Below the pieces are notes generated by a model that did not search any database, was not told the origin of the DNA, and saw nothing but the letters and a program-made list of their open reading frames with translations. Positions 25,078-32,930 of a stretch of 64,000 nucleotides of DNA are shown in pieces. Position 1 is the first letter of the stretch, and every line of letters starts with the position of its first letter. The stretch is from the sequence record NC_025447.1, one strand, 5' to 3'. This stretch comes from Escherichia phage 121Q. Both the position numbers and the translations under genes were made by a program.

Positions 25078-25710
25078 ATGAAATCGCATGAGTTAGCAAA
25101 ATTACTACTATCTCAACCAAATCTAGAAATTTATCATTATGATGCAGAGAGTGACTTGCATTATCAGAATTTTGATAATAAATTAATGGTTACACCATCT
25201 GGTATTTTCACAACGGTAAAACCTACATCAGTTTCTGAAAATGTACTTACACCATACGAAACCCCCCTCTTGGGTCATGTGCAAATTTTCTTTAAGGATG
25301 GTACTATTACTCCAAAATTGGAGGGTTCACATATTCAAACTGTTCTTAGCTTAGAATATGGGTTGGTATTTAACATTCCTTATGAAAAGCCAATTGTTTT
25401 ATTAGGTAAAAATCAATCAACACAATTCTCTAATCAACATACTGTTTGTTATACATCTGATGATATTGATTTCATTTCAGTACTGACAGAATATGATCCT
25501 AATACTTGGCACGAAACATGGAAAACTATGTCATATGATGAAGCAATTGAATGTGGTAAAAATTTAGCCAAAATGTTATTTTCACCGAAAAAAGAACTTT
25601 CACAAGAACAAAATGAATCATTTTCTAAAGATTTTCCTGATTCTGAATTCAATGTTAAAGTATCAACTACCAAAATTGGTGAATTTCTAAATGAAAATCA
25701 AAAAGATTAA
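25078..25710 (+). CDS. hypothetical protein, paralog of 26080..26664
   Basis: Start moved from 25048 (inside the terminator hairpin) to ATG 25078; N-terminus MKSHELAKLLLSQPNLEIYHYD parallels MKAKDLAALLMQNPEMEVYHEH. Confidence 0.55.
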   Translation: MKSHELAKLLLSQPNLEIYHYDAESDLHYQNFDNKLMVTPSGIFTTVKPTSVSENVLTPYETPLLGHVQIFFKDGTITPKLEGSHIQTVLSLEYGLVFNIPYEKPIVLLGKNQSTQFSNQHTVCYTSDDIDFISVLTEYDPNTWHETWKTMSYDEAIECGKNLAKMLFSPKKELSQEQNESFSKDFPDSEFNVKVSTTKIGEFLNENQKD

Positions 25711-26083
25711 ATTCCACCAGCATTGTTCTATACATGTCTGTGATGATTGTGGTATACAAATGAGTGATATTTATACAGTTTCCTGTAAAGGTTTCAAATT
25801 CACTCATGGTGAACCTGCTTACTGTTATGGTACAGAAGAAGGTGATATCGAGATAGTACTGAAAGAATTGTTCCAGTACTTGCAAAGTGTCGGTCATGAT
25901 GTTACAATACCCACATATTATGAAGATGATTATGATGCACATGTAGAAGAAAATACATATTATAATCAATTCGTTTATGGTAATGGTTTTATCACATACC
26001 TACATGAGAATGGTATTGAGGTAAAAACTAAGTACACCAGTGATGATTATGATGATGATAATTCTATGGAGATTGAAGATTGA
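25691..26083 (+). CDS. hypothetical acidic protein
   Basis: 130-aa ORF between the two paralogs; overlaps both neighbours. Confidence 0.45.
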   Translation: MKIKKIKFHQHCSIHVCDDCGIQMSDIYTVSCKGFKFTHGEPAYCYGTEEGDIEIVLKELFQYLQSVGHDVTIPTYYEDDYDAHVEENTYYNQFVYGNGFITYLHENGIEVKTKYTSDDYDDDNSMEIED

Positions 26084-26664
26084 AAGCAAAAGACTTGGCA
26101 GCACTGTTGATGCAGAATCCTGAAATGGAAGTGTATCATGAGCACATGCACATTGATGACATGTGTGACGCTTACTATTCACCAGAAAATGTGTCTGGTA
26201 TTGAAATCACCCCTAGTGGAGTATTCATCAGTACTGAACGTATTGATTTGAATTCCCAGCAAGAAATCAAAACTCCACATAATAAACCTCGCATTGGTGC
26301 TATTGACCTAGTATTTCATCAGGACCGTTTGGTGGAATATGATGAAGACGATGGTACTACCCAAACTGATGTTGAGAATGTTGTTTTTCGTTTTTATAAT
26401 GCATACGAAGACCCAACTACTGGAGAAGATTTCTTCCGTGAGCTATTAGAGGATGGGGAAGTTTATGGTCAGGATGGTACGGTTTTTGTACTAGACCCTA
26501 ACTATGAGCCAGATCACAATACATGGCAATTCTATACACCAGAAGATGTAATGGAAGTTAAAGTACTTATGGATATTGACGATAAATGGAATCCTATGTA
26601 TACTTCAATGACATATGAAGAAGCCAAAGAATACTTCGTTTCTAAACTAAACATTACAAAATAA
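26080..26664 (+). CDS. hypothetical protein, paralog of 25078..25710
   Basis: Shared N-terminal block and ITPSGVF/VTPSGIF motif. Confidence 0.55.
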   Translation: MKAKDLAALLMQNPEMEVYHEHMHIDDMCDAYYSPENVSGIEITPSGVFISTERIDLNSQQEIKTPHNKPRIGAIDLVFHQDRLVEYDEDDGTTQTDVENVVFRFYNAYEDPTTGEDFFRELLEDGEVYGQDGTVFVLDPNYEPDHNTWQFYTPEDVMEVKVLMDIDDKWNPMYTSMTYEEAKEYFVSKLNITK

Positions 26665-26681
26665 TAAGGATTCACAAATTT

Positions 26682-26963
26682 ATGAAAATTGTTGCAAGTG
26701 CATGGATGAAACTACCAGATGGTACAACTGCTTTTGAAGAATATGGCTTTGTTGAAAGTGTAGATGAATTAAAGCGTTTCAAAAGTGAAAATGATGATGA
26801 TGTGTTTGATATTGTATTTGTATATCATCATATTCCTAATGATACTGATTATGAACATTATTATTATCATCCTGATTTGTTGGAAACACTTGTATGCGAC
26901 AACTATCATGAAATTGATGAAAATACAGCTTTACTAATGTTGAGTACCGTATCTCCGGTATAA
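26682..26963 (+). CDS. hypothetical acidic protein
   Basis: 93-aa ORF. Confidence 0.45.
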   Translation: MKIVASAWMKLPDGTTAFEEYGFVESVDELKRFKSENDDDVFDIVFVYHHIPNDTDYEHYYYHPDLLETLVCDNYHEIDENTALLMLSTVSPV

Positions 26964-26971
26964 GGAGTAAT

Positions 26972-27451
26972 ATGTATAATCTTATAATTATCCGCGAACC
27001 ATATGAATCTGACAACAGTTCAACTGATGGTGAGGTTTTAGTATATCAAAGTTATGAACAAAGTGGCATTGAACATGAATTAAAAGATTATTTACGTCAA
27101 CATATATATCTATATCGTTCAAAACCACATGAACAGTATGGCGATATAATGTTTATCGTAACTCATAATGGTGCAGTAATTGAACATGTAAATATGACAA
27201 ATAACATGTATTTTCATAATTACACTGACACGTCTAAAGAATTAGGAAACGATTTCAATGCTGTTTACAATGCATTGCGTATCAATTTTTTTAAAAATGA
27301 CAAATTCTGTACTGATATTAGATTAGAAGAAGCAAATACAAAAAAGAAACTTTCTCGAAAATACGAGAGTGATAGAAAAAAAGAACAAGAGATTCAGCGT
27401 TTACACGAATTGATGAAAAAATACCCTAATGAGGTACAACATGGCTCTTAG
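26972..27451 (+). CDS. hypothetical protein
   Basis: 159-aa ORF with AGGAG RBS. Confidence 0.5.
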   Translation: MYNLIIIREPYESDNSSTDGEVLVYQSYEQSGIEHELKDYLRQHIYLYRSKPHEQYGDIMFIVTHNGAVIEHVNMTNNMYFHNYTDTSKELGNDFNAVYNALRINFFKNDKFCTDIRLEEANTKKKLSRKYESDRKKEQEIQRLHELMKKYPNEVQHGS

Positions 27452-27779
27452 AGGTTCAAATCAATATAAATGTATTGCAGAGATCAGGAAGAAAGATGGA
27501 ACACTTGTAGACCGAACATTAAAGGAAGAATATAAAGAACTACGTGATGTGGTGCATAATGATAGTTATGGCGGGATGCGTCGTCAAAAAATTTATGAAT
27601 ATCTAAAGAAAGGTTTAGAAATTCAGGTTAATGGTCTTCATTGTATTCAAACAAAAAATGATCCTGATATTCTACGTTTGTTGAAAGAAGATAAGATTGA
27701 AATGTTTAATGTTCCTATTTCATTCTATGGTAATAAACTAAAATGTAAGCATACTTTCTTGAGGATTAAAAATGGTTGA
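27441..27779 (+). CDS. hypothetical protein
   Basis: Start placed at ATG 27441 (GAGGT RBS 6 nt upstream) rather than track start 27429. Confidence 0.45.
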   Translation: MALRGSNQYKCIAEIRKKDGTLVDRTLKEEYKELRDVVHNDSYGGMRRQKIYEYLKKGLEIQVNGLHCIQTKNDPDILRLLKEDKIEMFNVPISFYGNKLKCKHTFLRIKNG

Positions 27780-31477: not shown

Positions 31478-31505
31478 GGGACAGATTAATTCTGTCCCTT
31501 TTCTT
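31478..31505 (+). terminator. rho-independent terminator
   Basis: GGGACAGA-ttaat-TCTGTCCC followed by TTTTC. Confidence 0.7.
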
Positions 31506-31519
31506 ATGGAGTTTTAATT

Positions 31520-31915
31520 ATGAATTATTCCTGGATGGAAATTGTAAAATCTATAATATCAACACATGATATGGACTTACCTGAACACCTAGTTATTAAT
31601 AGATGGTACTATCCATATCCAGATAACCGTTGTGTTGGGATTGGATTTTTTATTAATGAAAAATCTCAATATATTGGATTAATTGAAGATTATACAAAAA
31701 CCAACATTGCGTTCTCTATTGAGTTGAATGTAGATCACATAAAATACTACACTAATAAAATGGACGAAGACGATGGTGATGTTATAATTCCAGCAGAAAT
31801 AGACGAAGCTTCATTTTTTCAGTTATCATTAATTCATGATGTATCTGATATTACTTATGATAATGTGAAAGACCTTTTTATATTGTACAATAAACTGTAT
31901 AATTACTTTTTATAA
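31520..31915 (+). CDS. hypothetical protein
   Basis: 131-aa ORF. Confidence 0.5.
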   Translation: MNYSWMEIVKSIISTHDMDLPEHLVINRWYYPYPDNRCVGIGFFINEKSQYIGLIEDYTKTNIAFSIELNVDHIKYYTNKMDEDDGDVIIPAEIDEASFFQLSLIHDVSDITYDNVKDLFILYNKLYNYFL

Positions 31916-31928
31916 TGGAGATAAATTT

Positions 31929-32114
31929 ATGGAATATACAATATGTATAGTTATATGTATCATATCCTTACTAGTCGGGGTTGGTGTGATGATTTATTGT
32001 GATGCAGAACCCAGTACTGAAGTAGGAACAACAATAACACTTAAACCTGGTGTTAAAGTTAATGATAATTATTGCTATGATCCAAACACTAATCGATATG
32101 AGATTTGTCTATGA
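31929..32114 (+). CDS. small membrane/secreted protein
   Basis: N-terminal hydrophobic segment ICIVICIISLLVGVGVMIY followed by a Cys-containing tail. Confidence 0.45.
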   Translation: MEYTICIVICIISLLVGVGVMIYCDAEPSTEVGTTITLKPGVKVNDNYCYDPNTNRYEICL

Positions 32115-32521
32115 AAAAGTTTGATATTAAACCTATTATTGATGCTATCGAAATTAAATTAAAAAATACTAAAAAGCCAGATAGTACAGGTTTGTTCTTT
32201 AGTTTAGATAAAATGTATTATGAAACACACGTGTCAAGTTATGATAGAACAGGAAATCTCTTCATCCGTACATATAACATATTTTATAGTGAAGATGTTT
32301 TTATGATAGATATAAATCTGGATGAAGGTATAGTGTTGATGTATATTGAGGATGTTCAATCCACAGAACAACGAAACGGGACTCTTCCTATTGCTGCTAC
32401 AGAGGAAGAGTTTTTGCAATATCAGTTCATTGAGGATACCTTTGGTATTGACTTTGATACATATCAGAGTATAATGAGGGTATACGAACTTTATGAGGAT
32501 TATGTGATTGGACGTTACTAA
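32105..32521 (+). CDS. hypothetical protein, paralog of 32508..32930
   Basis: Shared C-terminal block GTLPIAATEEEFLQYQFIEDTFGIDFDTYQ versus GTLPVDDNGPETLDQYMFIDDTFGIDYSAYQ. Confidence 0.55.
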   Translation: MSMKKFDIKPIIDAIEIKLKNTKKPDSTGLFFSLDKMYYETHVSSYDRTGNLFIRTYNIFYSEDVFMIDINLDEGIVLMYIEDVQSTEQRNGTLPIAATEEEFLQYQFIEDTFGIDFDTYQSIMRVYELYEDYVIGRY

Positions 32522-32930
32522 AATTCCAAAATTTAATGAAACGTTAAAGTACTTTGCTGAACACGAAATCAGTACTGAAAGACGTGGTTTGATTTCATAC
32601 AATCATCATCGTGTTATGTACACTAATAATTTTCAGGGTACAGTTCGTATTAAATTTCGTAATGCACTCGACGACAATGATGAATTGTTAATTTTACTAC
32701 GAAAAAGTAAGATAGAATTGACATACGCAACTCACCATATTGAAAGTGAGTTGATGTGGCACACACTATCAAAAAAAGAAGGGACATTACCAGTTGATGA
32801 TAATGGACCGGAAACACTTGATCAGTACATGTTCATTGATGATACATTTGGTATTGACTATTCTGCATATCAGTGTATACTAGCTATACACAAAAAATAT
32901 TACGACCGTCTACGTGATAGATTAATTTAA
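32508..32930 (+). CDS. hypothetical protein, paralog of 32105..32521
   Basis: Tandem duplicate, 14-nt overlap with upstream paralog. Confidence 0.55.
   Translation: MDVTKIPKFNETLKYFAEHEISTERRGLISYNHHRVMYTNNFQGTVRIKFRNALDDNDELLILLRKSKIELTYATHHIESELMWHTLSKKEGTLPVDDNGPETLDQYMFIDDTFGIDYSAYQCILAIHKKYYDRLRDRLI

What the first reader, a model, noticed from the sequence alone, without database searches (positions are those of the whole stretch)
25078..32930. Tandem gene duplications in the small-gene accessory region
Two separate paralog pairs (25078 with 26080; 32105 with 32508) lie among about 20 short ORFs of unknown function between the lysis and nucleotide-metabolism genes. This indicates a hyperplastic region where small host-takeover or anti-defence genes are gained and diversified.
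Basis: seen in the sequence. Interest (0 to 1): 0.35.

Follow-up and report, generated by a model that had tools for sequence, protein, structure and literature searches.

The report
Old and recurrent gene duplicates, jumbo phage
Both pairs of duplicated small genes are real, but they are ordinary features of a known group of giant E. coli phages: one pair is an ancient duplication, the other is part of a small gene family that is repeatedly copied, lost and swapped at one spot, and what either family does is still unknown.

Summary
The window is an Asteriusvirus jumbo coliphage (121Q/G17/PBECO4 type, 98% identical to G17).

**Both paralog pairs are real.**
- 25078 vs 26080: 24% identity over 189 aa, E 6e-11. 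Both fall in phrog_18200.
- 32105 vs 32508: 41% identity over 54 aa, E 9e-12. Both fall full-length in phrog_20693.

- The region is not generally hyperplastic. About 10-11 of its 19 ORFs have same-order orthologs in Klebsiella phage RaK2, and several have predicted functions.
- Pair A is an ancient duplication. Each copy is closer to its counterpart in other genera than to its partner.
- A2 was found in every relative searched. A1 is missing from 11 of 33 close relatives.
- Pair B belongs to a wider family with a shared C-terminal motif and four members in this window.
- The array of this family upstream of the CCA gene holds 1 to 4-5 copies in different phages.
- B1 exists as two roughly 50%-identical allele classes.

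All these genes are under purifying selection, were not detected in the phAPEC6 virion, and match no known domain or fold. Their function is unknown; soluble intracellular binding proteins is the best guess.

**Side observation.** A multi-copy, roughly 500-nt structured RNA candidate at 23457-24012 looks more novel than the finding itself.

The parts
25004..25077 (+). Composite promoter-like / hairpin / T-run / Shine-Dalgarno cassette (PeSL-like) directly upstream of A1
   Evidence: TTTACA-17-TAAACT (9/12), then a 9-bp GC-rich hairpin at 25037-25057, a T-run and GGAG, then the ATG at 25078. In CRJP21 the same cassette is joined directly to the next gene, with A1 missing.
25078..25710 (+). A1: family A paralog (A1-type, phrog_18200). 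Its C-terminal ~15 aa derive from the tail of a deleted neighbouring gene.
   Evidence: Its best non-self hits are the A1-type copies of Hallingskeid (89 bits) and Munch (74 bits), against 46 bits to its own partner A2. dN/dS is 0.44-1.0. It is absent from 11 of 33 close relatives.
25665..25666 (+). Junction of a ~352-bp deletion, seen only in this window among the relatives retrieved. It removed the PBECO4 gp053 homolog (117 aa) and fused A1 in frame to its last codons.
   Evidence: All full-length megablast hits align in 2 pieces and span ~10,350 bases against the 10,001-base query. Junction read.
25691..26083 (+). Intervening Cys-rich 130-aa gene (phrog_9509), ortholog of RaK2 ORF016. Not a family A member.
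   Evidence: 45% identity to RaK2 ORF016, E 3e-32; phrog hit; no family A HMM hit.
26080..26664 (+). A2: family A paralog (A2-type), found in every RaK2-like relative searched. TTG start overlaps the upstream stop codon (TTGA).
   Evidence: tblastn finds it in 50 phage records across Escherichia, Klebsiella, Salmonella and Erwinia phages. It is the ortholog of RaK2 ORF017 (31.5%, E 1e-22). dN/dS is 0.14-0.29. Start context. Net charge about -28.
31446..31519 (+). PeSL-like cassette heading the unit that contains the B array
   Evidence: TTGACA-17-TATACT (11/12), then a 10-bp hairpin at 31476-31500, a T-run, GGAG and ATG. G17 annotates a terminator at the same place.
31520..31915 (+). Third member of the B superfamily in the array (phrog_36582)
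   Evidence: An HMM trained without it hits it at E 8e-5 among 318 window ORFs; the best non-family hit is E 0.09. BLASTP to the EJP2 and Munch array copies gives E 6e-5 to 2e-4. It shares a phrog_17453 cross-hit with B1. A direct profile comparison with the B1/B2 alignment alone was not significant (E 0.12).
31929..32114 (+). 61-aa ORF with an N-terminal hydrophobic helix, coupled to B1 by an ATGA overlap
   Evidence: (phrog_4189). In Salmonella phage SD-1_S14 the HMM match suggests its first ~19 codons are fused to the C-terminus of B2; the junction itself was not read.
32111..32521 (+). B1 (phrog_20693), present as two allele classes among close relatives
   Evidence: The window-type allele (84-100% identity) is in 11 phages and the PBECO4-type (50-53%) in 16. 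Against PBECO4: dS 1.35, dN/dS 0.28.
32508..32930 (+). B2 (phrog_20693). TTG start sits 10 nt after a GAGGA, inside the end of B1.
   Evidence: The AlphaFold2 model has pLDDT 87.9 and pTM 0.85: a helix, six antiparallel strands and two C-terminal helices. No significant PDB match. Structural matches only to uncharacterised proteins of RaK2-like phages.
32942..33064 (+). 40-aa acidic ORF between B2 and the CCA gene. A second copy follows an extra B-like gene in fEgEco12 and JNE01.
   Evidence: phrog_34272. 68% identical to fEgEco12 11208-11333.
15663..16064 (+). Distant fourth member of the B superfamily, overlapping by 4 nt the start of a RlaP-type nucleotidyltransferase gene (16061-17293)
   Evidence: HMM E 1e-5 with the motif NEETFFQEDTIINLGFSFDDY. 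Counterparts lie directly upstream of the annotated nucleotidyltransferase in Munch, and near it in Hallingskeid and EJP2. The neighbour hits Pfam PF10127.

Best explanation
These are two unrelated protein families restricted to RaK2-like jumbo phages. Family A is an ancient two-paralog set. The A2-type copy was found in every relative searched and is under firm purifying selection. The A1-type copy is older than the split of the genera, evolves under weaker constraint, and is repeatedly lost. Family B is a wider family of ~130-150-aa proteins that share a C-terminal helix-loop-helix motif (roughly EE-F/Y-F-Q-x-S-x-I-x-D-L-x4-Y-D-x-Y). An array of these genes sits between the ribosome-hibernation-factor gene and the CCA tRNA nucleotidyltransferase gene in the RaK2-like phages examined. 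That array has expanded independently in several lineages, shrinks by deletion, and exchanges old alleles by homologous recombination. What is shown: homology, real coding status, dispensability of A1, B1 and B2, absence from the phAPEC6 virion proteome, and tight translational coupling inside units headed by sigma-70-like promoter/hairpin cassettes. What is inferred: they are soluble, mostly acidic, non-enzymatic proteins made early by host RNA polymerase. They would act by binding a host or phage partner, with the variable copies (A1, B1, B2) tuning the phage to particular hosts, for example by countering host defences.
For: Homology. Ancient A duplication: the NJ tree and bit-score matrix place A1 with the second copies of Munch, Hallingskeid and EJP2, and A2 with RaK2 ORF017 and the others. 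Copy-number variation: family A has 1 copy (RaK2, JNE01, CRJP21), 2 (window, PBECO4, Munch, Hallingskeid) or 3 (EJP2). The B array has 1 copy (RaK2), 2 (JNE01, Munch), 3 (window), 4 (fEgEco12) or 4-5 (EJP2). Copies within a genome are closest to each other: EJP2 E 1e-9 to 1e-18, Munch 4e-11, window 2e-10. Purifying selection: dN/dS is 0.14-0.53 for all of them, except A1 vs G17 at 1.0 on very few changes. Recombinational allele exchange: nucleotide identity to PBECO4 falls to 70-77% at 32000-32750 inside 95-100% flanks, and B1 and B2 allele classes reassort. Dispensability: natural deletions of A1, of gp053 and of B1/B2. Non-virion: none of gp281-305 appears among the 62 virion proteins of phAPEC6, which excludes gp302c (A2), gp291c, gp290c (B1) and gp289c (B2) (for the mapping; PMC7247149 Table 1). 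Early-type regulation: four promoter+hairpin+SD cassettes lie at 20.8-31.5 kb. In the RaK2-like phage CBB, RpoD-like promoters cluster over short hypothetical ORFs thought to be early genes (PMC5259590), and PA5oct depends on host RNA polymerase (PMC7318152). No enzyme-like conserved residues and no TM or signal sequence; net charge is -3 to -28.
Against: There is no direct evidence of function, timing or target. A2 is universally kept, so it may serve a core phage process rather than host interaction. dN/dS gives no sign of positive selection. The A2 structure model is poor (pLDDT 60), so nothing can be said about its fold. The promoter scan as a whole is barely above chance (95 sites against 81 +/- 10 expected); only the four cassettes with an adjoining hairpin stand out. 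The family trees are NJ without bootstrap on very divergent sequences. Membership of 31520 and 15663 in the B family rests on E-values of 1e-4 to 1e-5 in small searches plus a shared motif.
Confidence: 0.5

Rival explanations
1. B-superfamily proteins are accessory partners (specificity, regulatory or chaperone subunits) of the phage's Pol-beta-type RNA nucleotidyltransferases, within an RNA-repair module.
For: B-like genes lie immediately upstream of both such enzymes in this window. 15663-16064 overlaps the RlaP-type gene at 16061-17293 by 4 nt, and the B array ends 135 nt before the CCA gene at 33066. The CCA adjacency holds in RaK2, EJP2, Munch and JNE01, and the RlaP-side counterpart lies directly upstream of the annotated nucleotidyltransferase in Munch. 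The neighbourhood is rich in RNA-related genes: a 2H-phosphoesterase-like match, HPF and CCA by Pfam, Nudix and macro domain as annotated in relatives, and an RNA ligase in Munch and Hallingskeid.
Against: Adjacency within one phage clade may only reflect shared ancestry. The one B-like gene found outside the clade (IMG/VR locus L014, 3959-4360) has no evident nucleotidyltransferase neighbour by inspection. The Salmonella SD phages and JNE01 keep the CCA gene but lack B1 and B2. A variable copy number and dimorphic alleles are odd for a fixed enzyme subunit.
Confidence: 0.15
2. The families, A2 above all, serve conserved internal phage processes such as replication, transcription switching or assembly chaperoning. 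The variation in A1/B1/B2 would then be neutral birth-and-death of redundant copies.
For: A2 is present in all 50 RaK2-like records found, with dN/dS 0.14-0.29. The region is syntenic across genera. No positive selection was detected. A1 shows relaxed constraint and frequent loss, as expected for a redundant copy.
Against: Both A paralog lineages have persisted since before the genera split, which argues against simple redundancy. Independent amplification of the B array in three lineages, and maintenance of two ~50%-identical B1 allele classes among near-identical genomes, are more typical of host-interaction genes.
Confidence: 0.25
3. The proteins are virion components, such as internal or ejected proteins.
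For: The neighbouring Dps-like protein (phAPEC6 gp306c, the homolog of 24589-25029) is virion-associated with 65.8% coverage. Jumbo phages package many small proteins.
Against: No phAPEC6 protein from gp281 to gp305 was detected among 62 virion proteins (PMC7247149 Table 1).
Confidence: 0.05
4. The similarities are chance or compositional, or the ORFs are not real genes.
For: Identity is low (24%) for pair A, and pair B aligns by BLAST only over 54 aa. The genome is AT-rich (GC 31-39% across the window).
Against: E-values are 1e-9 to 1e-11 even in the all-vs-all search. Both members of each pair give full-length hits to the same PHROG. dN/dS is below 1, with orthologs in many genomes. The B2 structure model is confident.
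Confidence: 0.02

Closest known systems
PHROG families phrog_18200 (family A) and phrog_20693 (family B), both 'unknown function'
   Same: Both members of each pair match the same PHROG over their full length, so the paralogy is already implicit in a public clustering.
   Different: PHROGs places 31520-31915 in a separate family (phrog_36582). It does not record the wider B superfamily, the copy-number variation or the A1/A2 split.
Hyperplastic regions of T4-type phages with PeSL (promoter-early stem-loop) cassettes (Arbiol et al. 2010, PMC2839356; Comeau et al. 2014, PMC4122927)
   Same: Near-consensus sigma-70 promoter immediately followed by a GC-rich stem-loop and T-run, in front of small ORFs of unknown function. 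One insertion/deletion difference between near-identical phages (A1 present or absent) abuts such a cassette exactly.
   Different: This is a different phage group (RaK2-like jumbo phages). The four cassettes share architecture but little sequence, so their role as recombination substrates is unproven. The B1/B2 exchanges are not bounded by cassettes. Most of the region is conserved rather than plastic.
Paralogous ORF sets reported in RaK2-like jumbo phages, e.g. the 22 paralogous ORFs of phage CBB (Buttimer et al. 2017, PMC5259590)
   Same: Same phage clade and the same phenomenon: short hypothetical ORFs that arose by duplication in a region rich in RpoD-like promoters, presumed early.
   Different: Whether the CBB list includes these two families was not checked. 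The recurrent amplification at the CCA locus and the B1 allele dimorphism are described here from the sequences.
p32 / gC1qBP / Mam33 fold (PDB 1p32, 3rpx, 3qv0)
   Same: Same order of secondary-structure elements as the B2 model (N-terminal helix, antiparallel sheet, two C-terminal helices). Both are small acidic proteins. These were the top PDB matches.
   Different: Not significant: E 0.075, TM-score about 0.3, rmsd above 13 A, six strands rather than seven, no sequence similarity. This is a resemblance only, not membership.

Membership tests
Tandem gene duplication (paralogs in cis) | Statistically supported homology between the two genes | tested here: met
Tandem gene duplication (paralogs in cis) | Adjacent, same strand, head-to-tail | tested here: met
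   B1/B2 are adjacent and overlap by 14 nt. A1/A2 are on the same strand but separated by one unrelated gene here and two in most relatives. The A1-type and A2-type copies are directly adjacent in Hallingskeid and EJP2.
Tandem gene duplication (paralogs in cis) | Duplication arose within this lineage (recent gain) | tested here: not met
   For pair A: each copy is closer to its counterpart in other genera than to its partner. For pair B the pattern does fit lineage-specific duplication, since within-genome copies are mutually closest and RaK2 has one copy.
T4-type hyperplastic region with PeSL cassettes | Composite early sigma-70 promoter plus stem-loop/terminator between genes | tested here: met
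   Four cassettes at 20791-20852, 22613-22673, 25004-25066 and 31446-31508, with promoter scores 9-12 of 12 abutting 9-10-bp hairpins.
T4-type hyperplastic region with PeSL cassettes | Gene content differs sharply between close relatives, and indels are bounded by cassettes | tested here: inconclusive
   The A1 indel abuts a cassette. The gp053 deletion, the missing tk gene, the extra B-like gene and the B1/B2 deletion are not cassette-bounded. 31 of 35 relatives cover at least 80% of the 10 kb, and about 10-11 of 19 ORFs have same-order RaK2 orthologs.
T4-type hyperplastic region with PeSL cassettes | Cassettes conserved in sequence and recombining (minicircles) | not testable with these tools
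   The cassettes share architecture and a GGAG(A)AA..ATG tail but little stem sequence. Testing recombination needs an experiment.
Known anti-defence or defence protein families | Sequence or fold match to a characterised family | tested here: not met
   No Pfam hit for any A or B member. No PADLOC hit. No PDB sequence hit. No significant PDB fold hit. No dedicated anti-defence library was available.
p32/Mam33 fold | Significant structural superposition | tested here: not met
   Best Foldseek E 0.075, TM 0.30-0.32, rmsd 14-16 A.
Virion structural proteins | Detected in purified particles | tested here: not met
   Orthologs gp289c-gp291c and gp302c are absent from the phAPEC6 virion proteome table (PMC7247149). 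This is evidence from the literature on a 97.5%-identical phage, not from this phage.

The most novel reading that the evidence does not exclude
The B superfamily is a recurrently amplified, recombination-swapped 'accordion' locus placed next to the phage's tRNA/RNA-repair enzymes. Its members would be a new class of small inhibitors, or enzyme partners, that counter host RNA-targeting defences. Copy number and the two B1 allele classes would then determine which hosts the phage can overcome.
Probability: 0.15. Interest if true: 0.6.

Novelty: new member of a known kind. Interest (0 to 1): 0.3.

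Why it matters
As it stands this is routine jumbo-phage biology: lineage-specific multigene families of unknown function in an early-type region. 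Its practical value is that nature has already made the knock-outs. CRJP21 lacks A1. The Salmonella SD phages and JNE01 lack B1/B2. This window lacks gp053. B1 comes in two allele classes. Simple host-range comparisons could therefore assign a phenotype. If the B array turns out to be a counter-defence or RNA-repair accessory family, it would add a new protein fold to that toolkit.

Tried and rejected
1. Function by sequence. Pfam, PHROGs, PADLOC and PDB sequence searches of all members and profiles returned only 'unknown function' PHROGs.

2. Function by fold.
- The confident B2 model has no significant PDB match. The p32/Mam33 resemblance was rejected at TM 0.3.
- The A2 model is too poor (pLDDT 60) for its PDB search to mean anything.

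3. Wider homologs.
- Word-indexed searches gave only close relatives.
- An exhaustive profile search of 1.84 billion proteins with family A found just 35 representatives.
- The few long repetitive hits in that search (P0056, P0058, P0059, P0061) were rejected as artefacts. They match many unrelated Pfam families.

4. Direct profile test of 31520 against the B1/B2 alignment was not significant (E 0.12). Membership was established only after adding the EJP2, Munch and RaK2 copies.

5. IMG/VR scans.
- A narrower alignment found one extra locus, without a nucleotidyltransferase neighbour by inspection.

6. Positive selection as the cause of B1/B2 divergence was rejected: dN/dS 0.28-0.38 with very high dS.

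7. Family A is not related to the other ~170-190-aa paralog set at 14060-15660; there was no HMM hit.

8. No transcriptome for an Asteriusvirus was found in the paper library.

Full report
**What the window is.** Megablast of 24000-34000 finds 35 phage records. The best are Escherichia phages G17 and Sharanji (98.0% identity, 100% coverage), then PBECO4, phAPEC6 and others, all about 350-kb jumbo phages of the genus Asteriusvirus in the RaK2-like clade. The gene numbering quoted in G17's annotation notes suggests the window is phage 121Q or a near-twin, but this is an inference only. Nearly all genes in 20-55 kb are on the + strand.

**Checking the observation.** Both pairs are real.
- Pair A: A1 (25078-25710) and A2 (26080-26664) align over almost their whole length at 24% identity, E 6e-11.
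- Pair B: B1 (32105/32111-32521) and B2 (32508-32930) align at 41% identity over the C-terminal 54 aa, E 9e-12.
- Both pairs survive an all-vs-all of 94 window ORFs.
- Both members of each pair fall full-length into the same PHROG: phrog_18200 for A and phrog_20693 for B.
- Family HMMs recover the partner at E 4e-57 for A and 6e-40 for B.

Pair B is strictly tandem. Pair A is split by an unrelated Cys-rich gene (25691-26083). Three further paralog sets lie elsewhere in the window: 7951/10659/11173, 14060/14633 and 41910/42691. Duplication is therefore a genome-wide habit, as already reported for the related phage CBB (PMC5259590).

**The region is mostly conserved, not hyperplastic.** The same block in Klebsiella phage RaK2 (genus Alcyoneusvirus) has the same order:
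- spanin, HNH, Dps-like protein, ORF016, ORF017, and onward to thymidine kinase, lysozyme, ORF030, CCA, Nudix and glutaredoxin.

Ten of the 19 ORFs in 25078-32930 have clear RaK2 orthologs in the same order, at 28-59% identity, and an eleventh is weak.

Not all ORFs are of unknown function. Pfam finds:
- a Dps/ferritin-like DUF5856 protein at 24589,
- a 2H-phosphoesterase-like match at 29612, just below Pfam's cut-off,
- a LysM-lysozyme at 30158,
- an HPF/RaiA ribosome hibernation factor at 31134,
- the CCA enzyme at 33066.

Among close relatives the differences are confined to a few sites:
- the A1/gp053 site,
- a thymidine kinase gene absent here but present in fEgEco12, RaK2, Munch, EJP2 and Hallingskeid,
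- an extra gene pair after 31915 in fEgEco12 and JNE01,
- a 210-aa gene after the lysozyme in JNE01 and Munch,
- deletions of B1/B2.

**Family A is an ancient pair.**
- A2 is the ortholog of RaK2 ORF017 (E 1e-22). tblastn finds it in all 50 RaK2-like records retrieved.
- A1 scores higher against the second copies of Hallingskeid (89 bits) and Munch (74 bits) than against its own partner A2 (46 bits).
- A2 scores 82-107 bits against the A2-type copies of other genera.
- An NJ tree of 47 members shows the same two clades.

The duplication therefore predates the genera. The two types are directly adjacent in Hallingskeid and EJP2, and EJP2 has a third copy.

A1 is the expendable one.
- It is absent from 11 of 33 distinct Asteriusvirus genomes. 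These include CRJP21, which is 98.6% identical over the 94% of the query it covers.
- It carries an internal deletion in Salmonella phage SD-1_S14.
- Its dN/dS is 0.44-1.0, against 0.14-0.29 for A2.

This window carries its own event at the same spot. A ~352-bp deletion, not seen in any of the retrieved relatives, removed the gp053 homolog and fused A1 in frame to that gene's last codons. An exhaustive profile search of 1.84 billion proteins found only 35 family A representatives. The full-length matches are stand-alone proteins of roughly 165-205 aa, and those scanned had no Pfam domain.

**Family B is larger than a pair and is recurrently amplified.** In EJP2 four tandem genes of ~130-137 aa fill the space between HPF and CCA. 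Munch has two, and RaK2 has one, ORF030. All share with B1 and B2 a C-terminal motif, for example:
- B1: TEEEFLQYQFIEDTFGIDFDTY
- EJP2: STEEEYFQQSTLHDLTNLDLDFF
- Munch: SEEEYFQESTLYDLNGIVYDDY
- RaK2: SYDMYHQYMFIEDHWNLSYDEY

An HMM built from these, without the sequences under test, was run against all 318 window ORFs.
- It hits 31520-31915 at E 8e-5 and 15663-16064 at E 1e-5.
- The next best hit is E 0.09.

The window therefore has three array members plus a distant fourth. Copy number in the array is 1 (RaK2), 2 (JNE01, Munch), 3 (window, PBECO4), 4 (fEgEco12) and 4-5 (EJP2). Copies within a genome are each other's closest relatives, which suggests independent amplifications or gene conversion.

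**Structure of B2.**
- The AlphaFold2 model of B2 is confident (pLDDT 87.9, pTM 0.85): a helix, six antiparallel strands and two helices. The motif lies on the last two helices.
- There is no significant PDB match. The best, p32/Mam33, has E 0.075 and TM 0.3.
- In the viral structure library it matches only uncharacterised proteins of RaK2-like phages, several per genome.

**Allele exchange, not fast evolution.**
- Against PBECO4, nucleotide identity is 95-100% across the region but drops to 70-77% at 32000-32750.
- B1 is only 52% identical and B2 74% identical, while the neighbours are 97-100%.
- dS is 1.35 for B1 and 0.47 for B2, against 0.02-0.12 in the flanks. dN/dS is 0.28 and 0.34.

These are old alleles brought in by recombination. 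Across the genus B1 falls into two classes with nothing in between: 84-100% identity in 11 phages and 50-53% in 16. The B1 and B2 classes reassort; Ecwhy_1, for example, has a PBECO4-type B1 with a window-type B2. Six of 33 phages lack B1/B2. A second mosaic patch at 22750-23500 matches fEgEco12 at 99% but PBECO4 and G17 at only 86-88%.

**Expression context.** Four intergenic cassettes share one architecture: a near-consensus sigma-70 promoter, a GC-rich hairpin starting directly after or within a few bases of the -10 hexamer, a T-run, GGAG and ATG.
- They lie at 20791-20852, 22613-22673, 25004-25066 and 31446-31508.
- This matches the PeSL cassettes described for hyperplastic regions of T4-type phages (PMC4122927).
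- A1 is the first gene after the third cassette, and 31520 is the first after the fourth.
- In CRJP21 the cassette is joined directly to gp053, with A1 missing.
- Within units the genes are tightly coupled. A2 starts at a TTGA overlap, B1 at an ATGA overlap, and B2 at a TTG inside the end of B1, 10 nt after a GAGGA.

Early transcription by host RNA polymerase is inferred from two things:
- the concentration of RpoD-like promoters over short ORFs in CBB,
- the dependence of PA5oct on host RNA polymerase.

No Asteriusvirus transcriptome was found. The phAPEC6 virion proteome lists none of gp281-305, so A2, 31520, B1 and B2 were not detected in the virion. The Dps-like neighbour gp306c is virion-associated.

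**Most likely mechanism and rivals.**
- The proteins lack conserved catalytic-type residues, signal peptides and membrane segments. Most are acidic, with net charge from -3 to -28.
- My best reading, at about 0.5, is that they are soluble intracellular binding proteins made early. A2 would be a conserved member, and A1/B1/B2 dispensable, host-tuning members.
- A notable alternative, at about 0.15, links the B family to the phage's Pol-beta-type RNA nucleotidyltransferases. B-like genes lie directly upstream of both the RlaP-type gene (16061) and the CCA gene (33066). This holds across genera for the CCA side and in Munch for the RlaP side.
- Against it: the one B-like gene found outside the clade has no such neighbour by inspection, and phages lacking B1/B2 keep CCA.
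- A conserved internal phage role (0.25), a virion role (0.05) and chance similarity (0.02) are the remaining rivals.

**Verdict.** It is a new member of a known kind and of modest interest. It shows variation exactly at the two families inside an otherwise conserved block.

**Noticed nearby.** The ~690-nt ORF-free gap at 23437-24128 holds a conserved element with its own extended -10 promoter and terminal hairpins.
- It is more conserved between genera than the flanking genes.
- It has strong covariation support for a ~450-nt fold. With six sequences, 92.6% of cells are paired against 38-49% in slid controls. With 14 sequences, 25 of 49 pairs show compensatory changes.
- It has no Rfam match.
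- It occurs 2-5 times per genome, four in every listed Asteriusvirus, across 70 RaK2-like phage records.

This looks like an undescribed multi-copy structured RNA and deserves its own follow-up.

Noticed in passing
window 23457-24012 (+), inside the ORF-free gap 23437-24128: Candidate ~500-nt structured non-coding RNA. It has its own conserved extended -10 (TGTGATATAAT) and ends in a T-run plus a CCCCTGCGGGGGG hairpin. It is conserved across genera whose flanking proteins are far more diverged. Covariation is strong: with 6 sequences 92.6% of cells are paired against 38-49% in slid controls and 0/500 shuffles reach the observed score; with 14 sequences 25 of 49 pairs show compensatory changes. 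There is no Rfam 15 match. It is multi-copy: 257 places in 70 RaK2-like phage records, 4 per genome in every listed Asteriusvirus, but only one copy in this window. Abundant ncRNAs seen by RNA-seq in the distant relative PA5oct (PMC7318152) might be counterparts; this was not tested.
   Followed up: partly
window 20791-20852, 22613-22673, 25004-25066, 31446-31508; hairpin+SD only at 28005-28041 and 35477-35517: Repeated intergenic architecture of sigma-70-like promoter, GC-rich hairpin, T-run, GGAG and ATG. It resembles the PeSL promoter/terminator cassettes of T4-type phages, which I have not seen described for RaK2-like jumbo phages (PMC4122927).
   Followed up: partly
window 25665/25666: A ~352-bp deletion, not seen in any of the retrieved relatives, removes the homolog of PBECO4 gp053 (117 aa, phrog_10749). 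It fuses A1 in frame to that gene's last ~15 codons and keeps the overlap with the start of the next gene.
   Followed up: yes
window 24589-25029: The ortholog of this Dps/ferritin-like DUF5856 protein (rI.-1-like) is virion-associated in phAPEC6 (gp306c, 65.8% sequence coverage by mass spectrometry). That is unexpected for a protein annotated as a 'starvation-inducible regulator'.
   Followed up: no
window 15663-17293, 29612-30022, 31134-31466, 33066-35994: A concentration of RNA-repair and translation-related genes. Pfam supports the RlaP-type nucleotidyltransferase, a sub-threshold 2H-phosphoesterase-like match, HPF/RaiA and the CCA-adding enzyme. Nudix, glutaredoxin and macro domain are as annotated in relatives. 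Related phages add an RNA ligase here.
   Followed up: partly
window 27772-27779 (junction of 27429-27779 and 27772-27996): A thymidine kinase gene sits at this position in fEgEco12, RaK2, Munch, EJP2 and Hallingskeid but is absent from this window and from PBECO4 and G17. This suggests loss in the 121Q/PBECO4 subgroup.
   Followed up: no
window 22750-23500: A mosaic patch: 86-88% nucleotide identity to PBECO4 and G17 but 98-99% to the otherwise more distant fEgEco12. This indicates recombination between co-circulating Asteriusviruses.
   Followed up: no
window 7951-13992, 14060-15660, 41910-43467: Other paralog sets. Two ~900-aa proteins share 27% identity over 956 aa (E 7e-60), and a 195-aa ORF matches their C-terminus. 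The tandem genes at 14060 and 14633 match at E 2e-13. The genes at 41910 and 42691 share 41% identity (E 6e-33).
   Followed up: no
L014 6206-6571 (IMG/VR contig, 173.8 kb): An ORF starting MTVAEMIAVLNGMPQDWEVVIPV resembles the N-terminus of family A (MKAKDLAALLMQNPEMEVYHE) and lies ~1.8 kb downstream of a B-like gene. This could be chance and was not tested.
   Followed up: no
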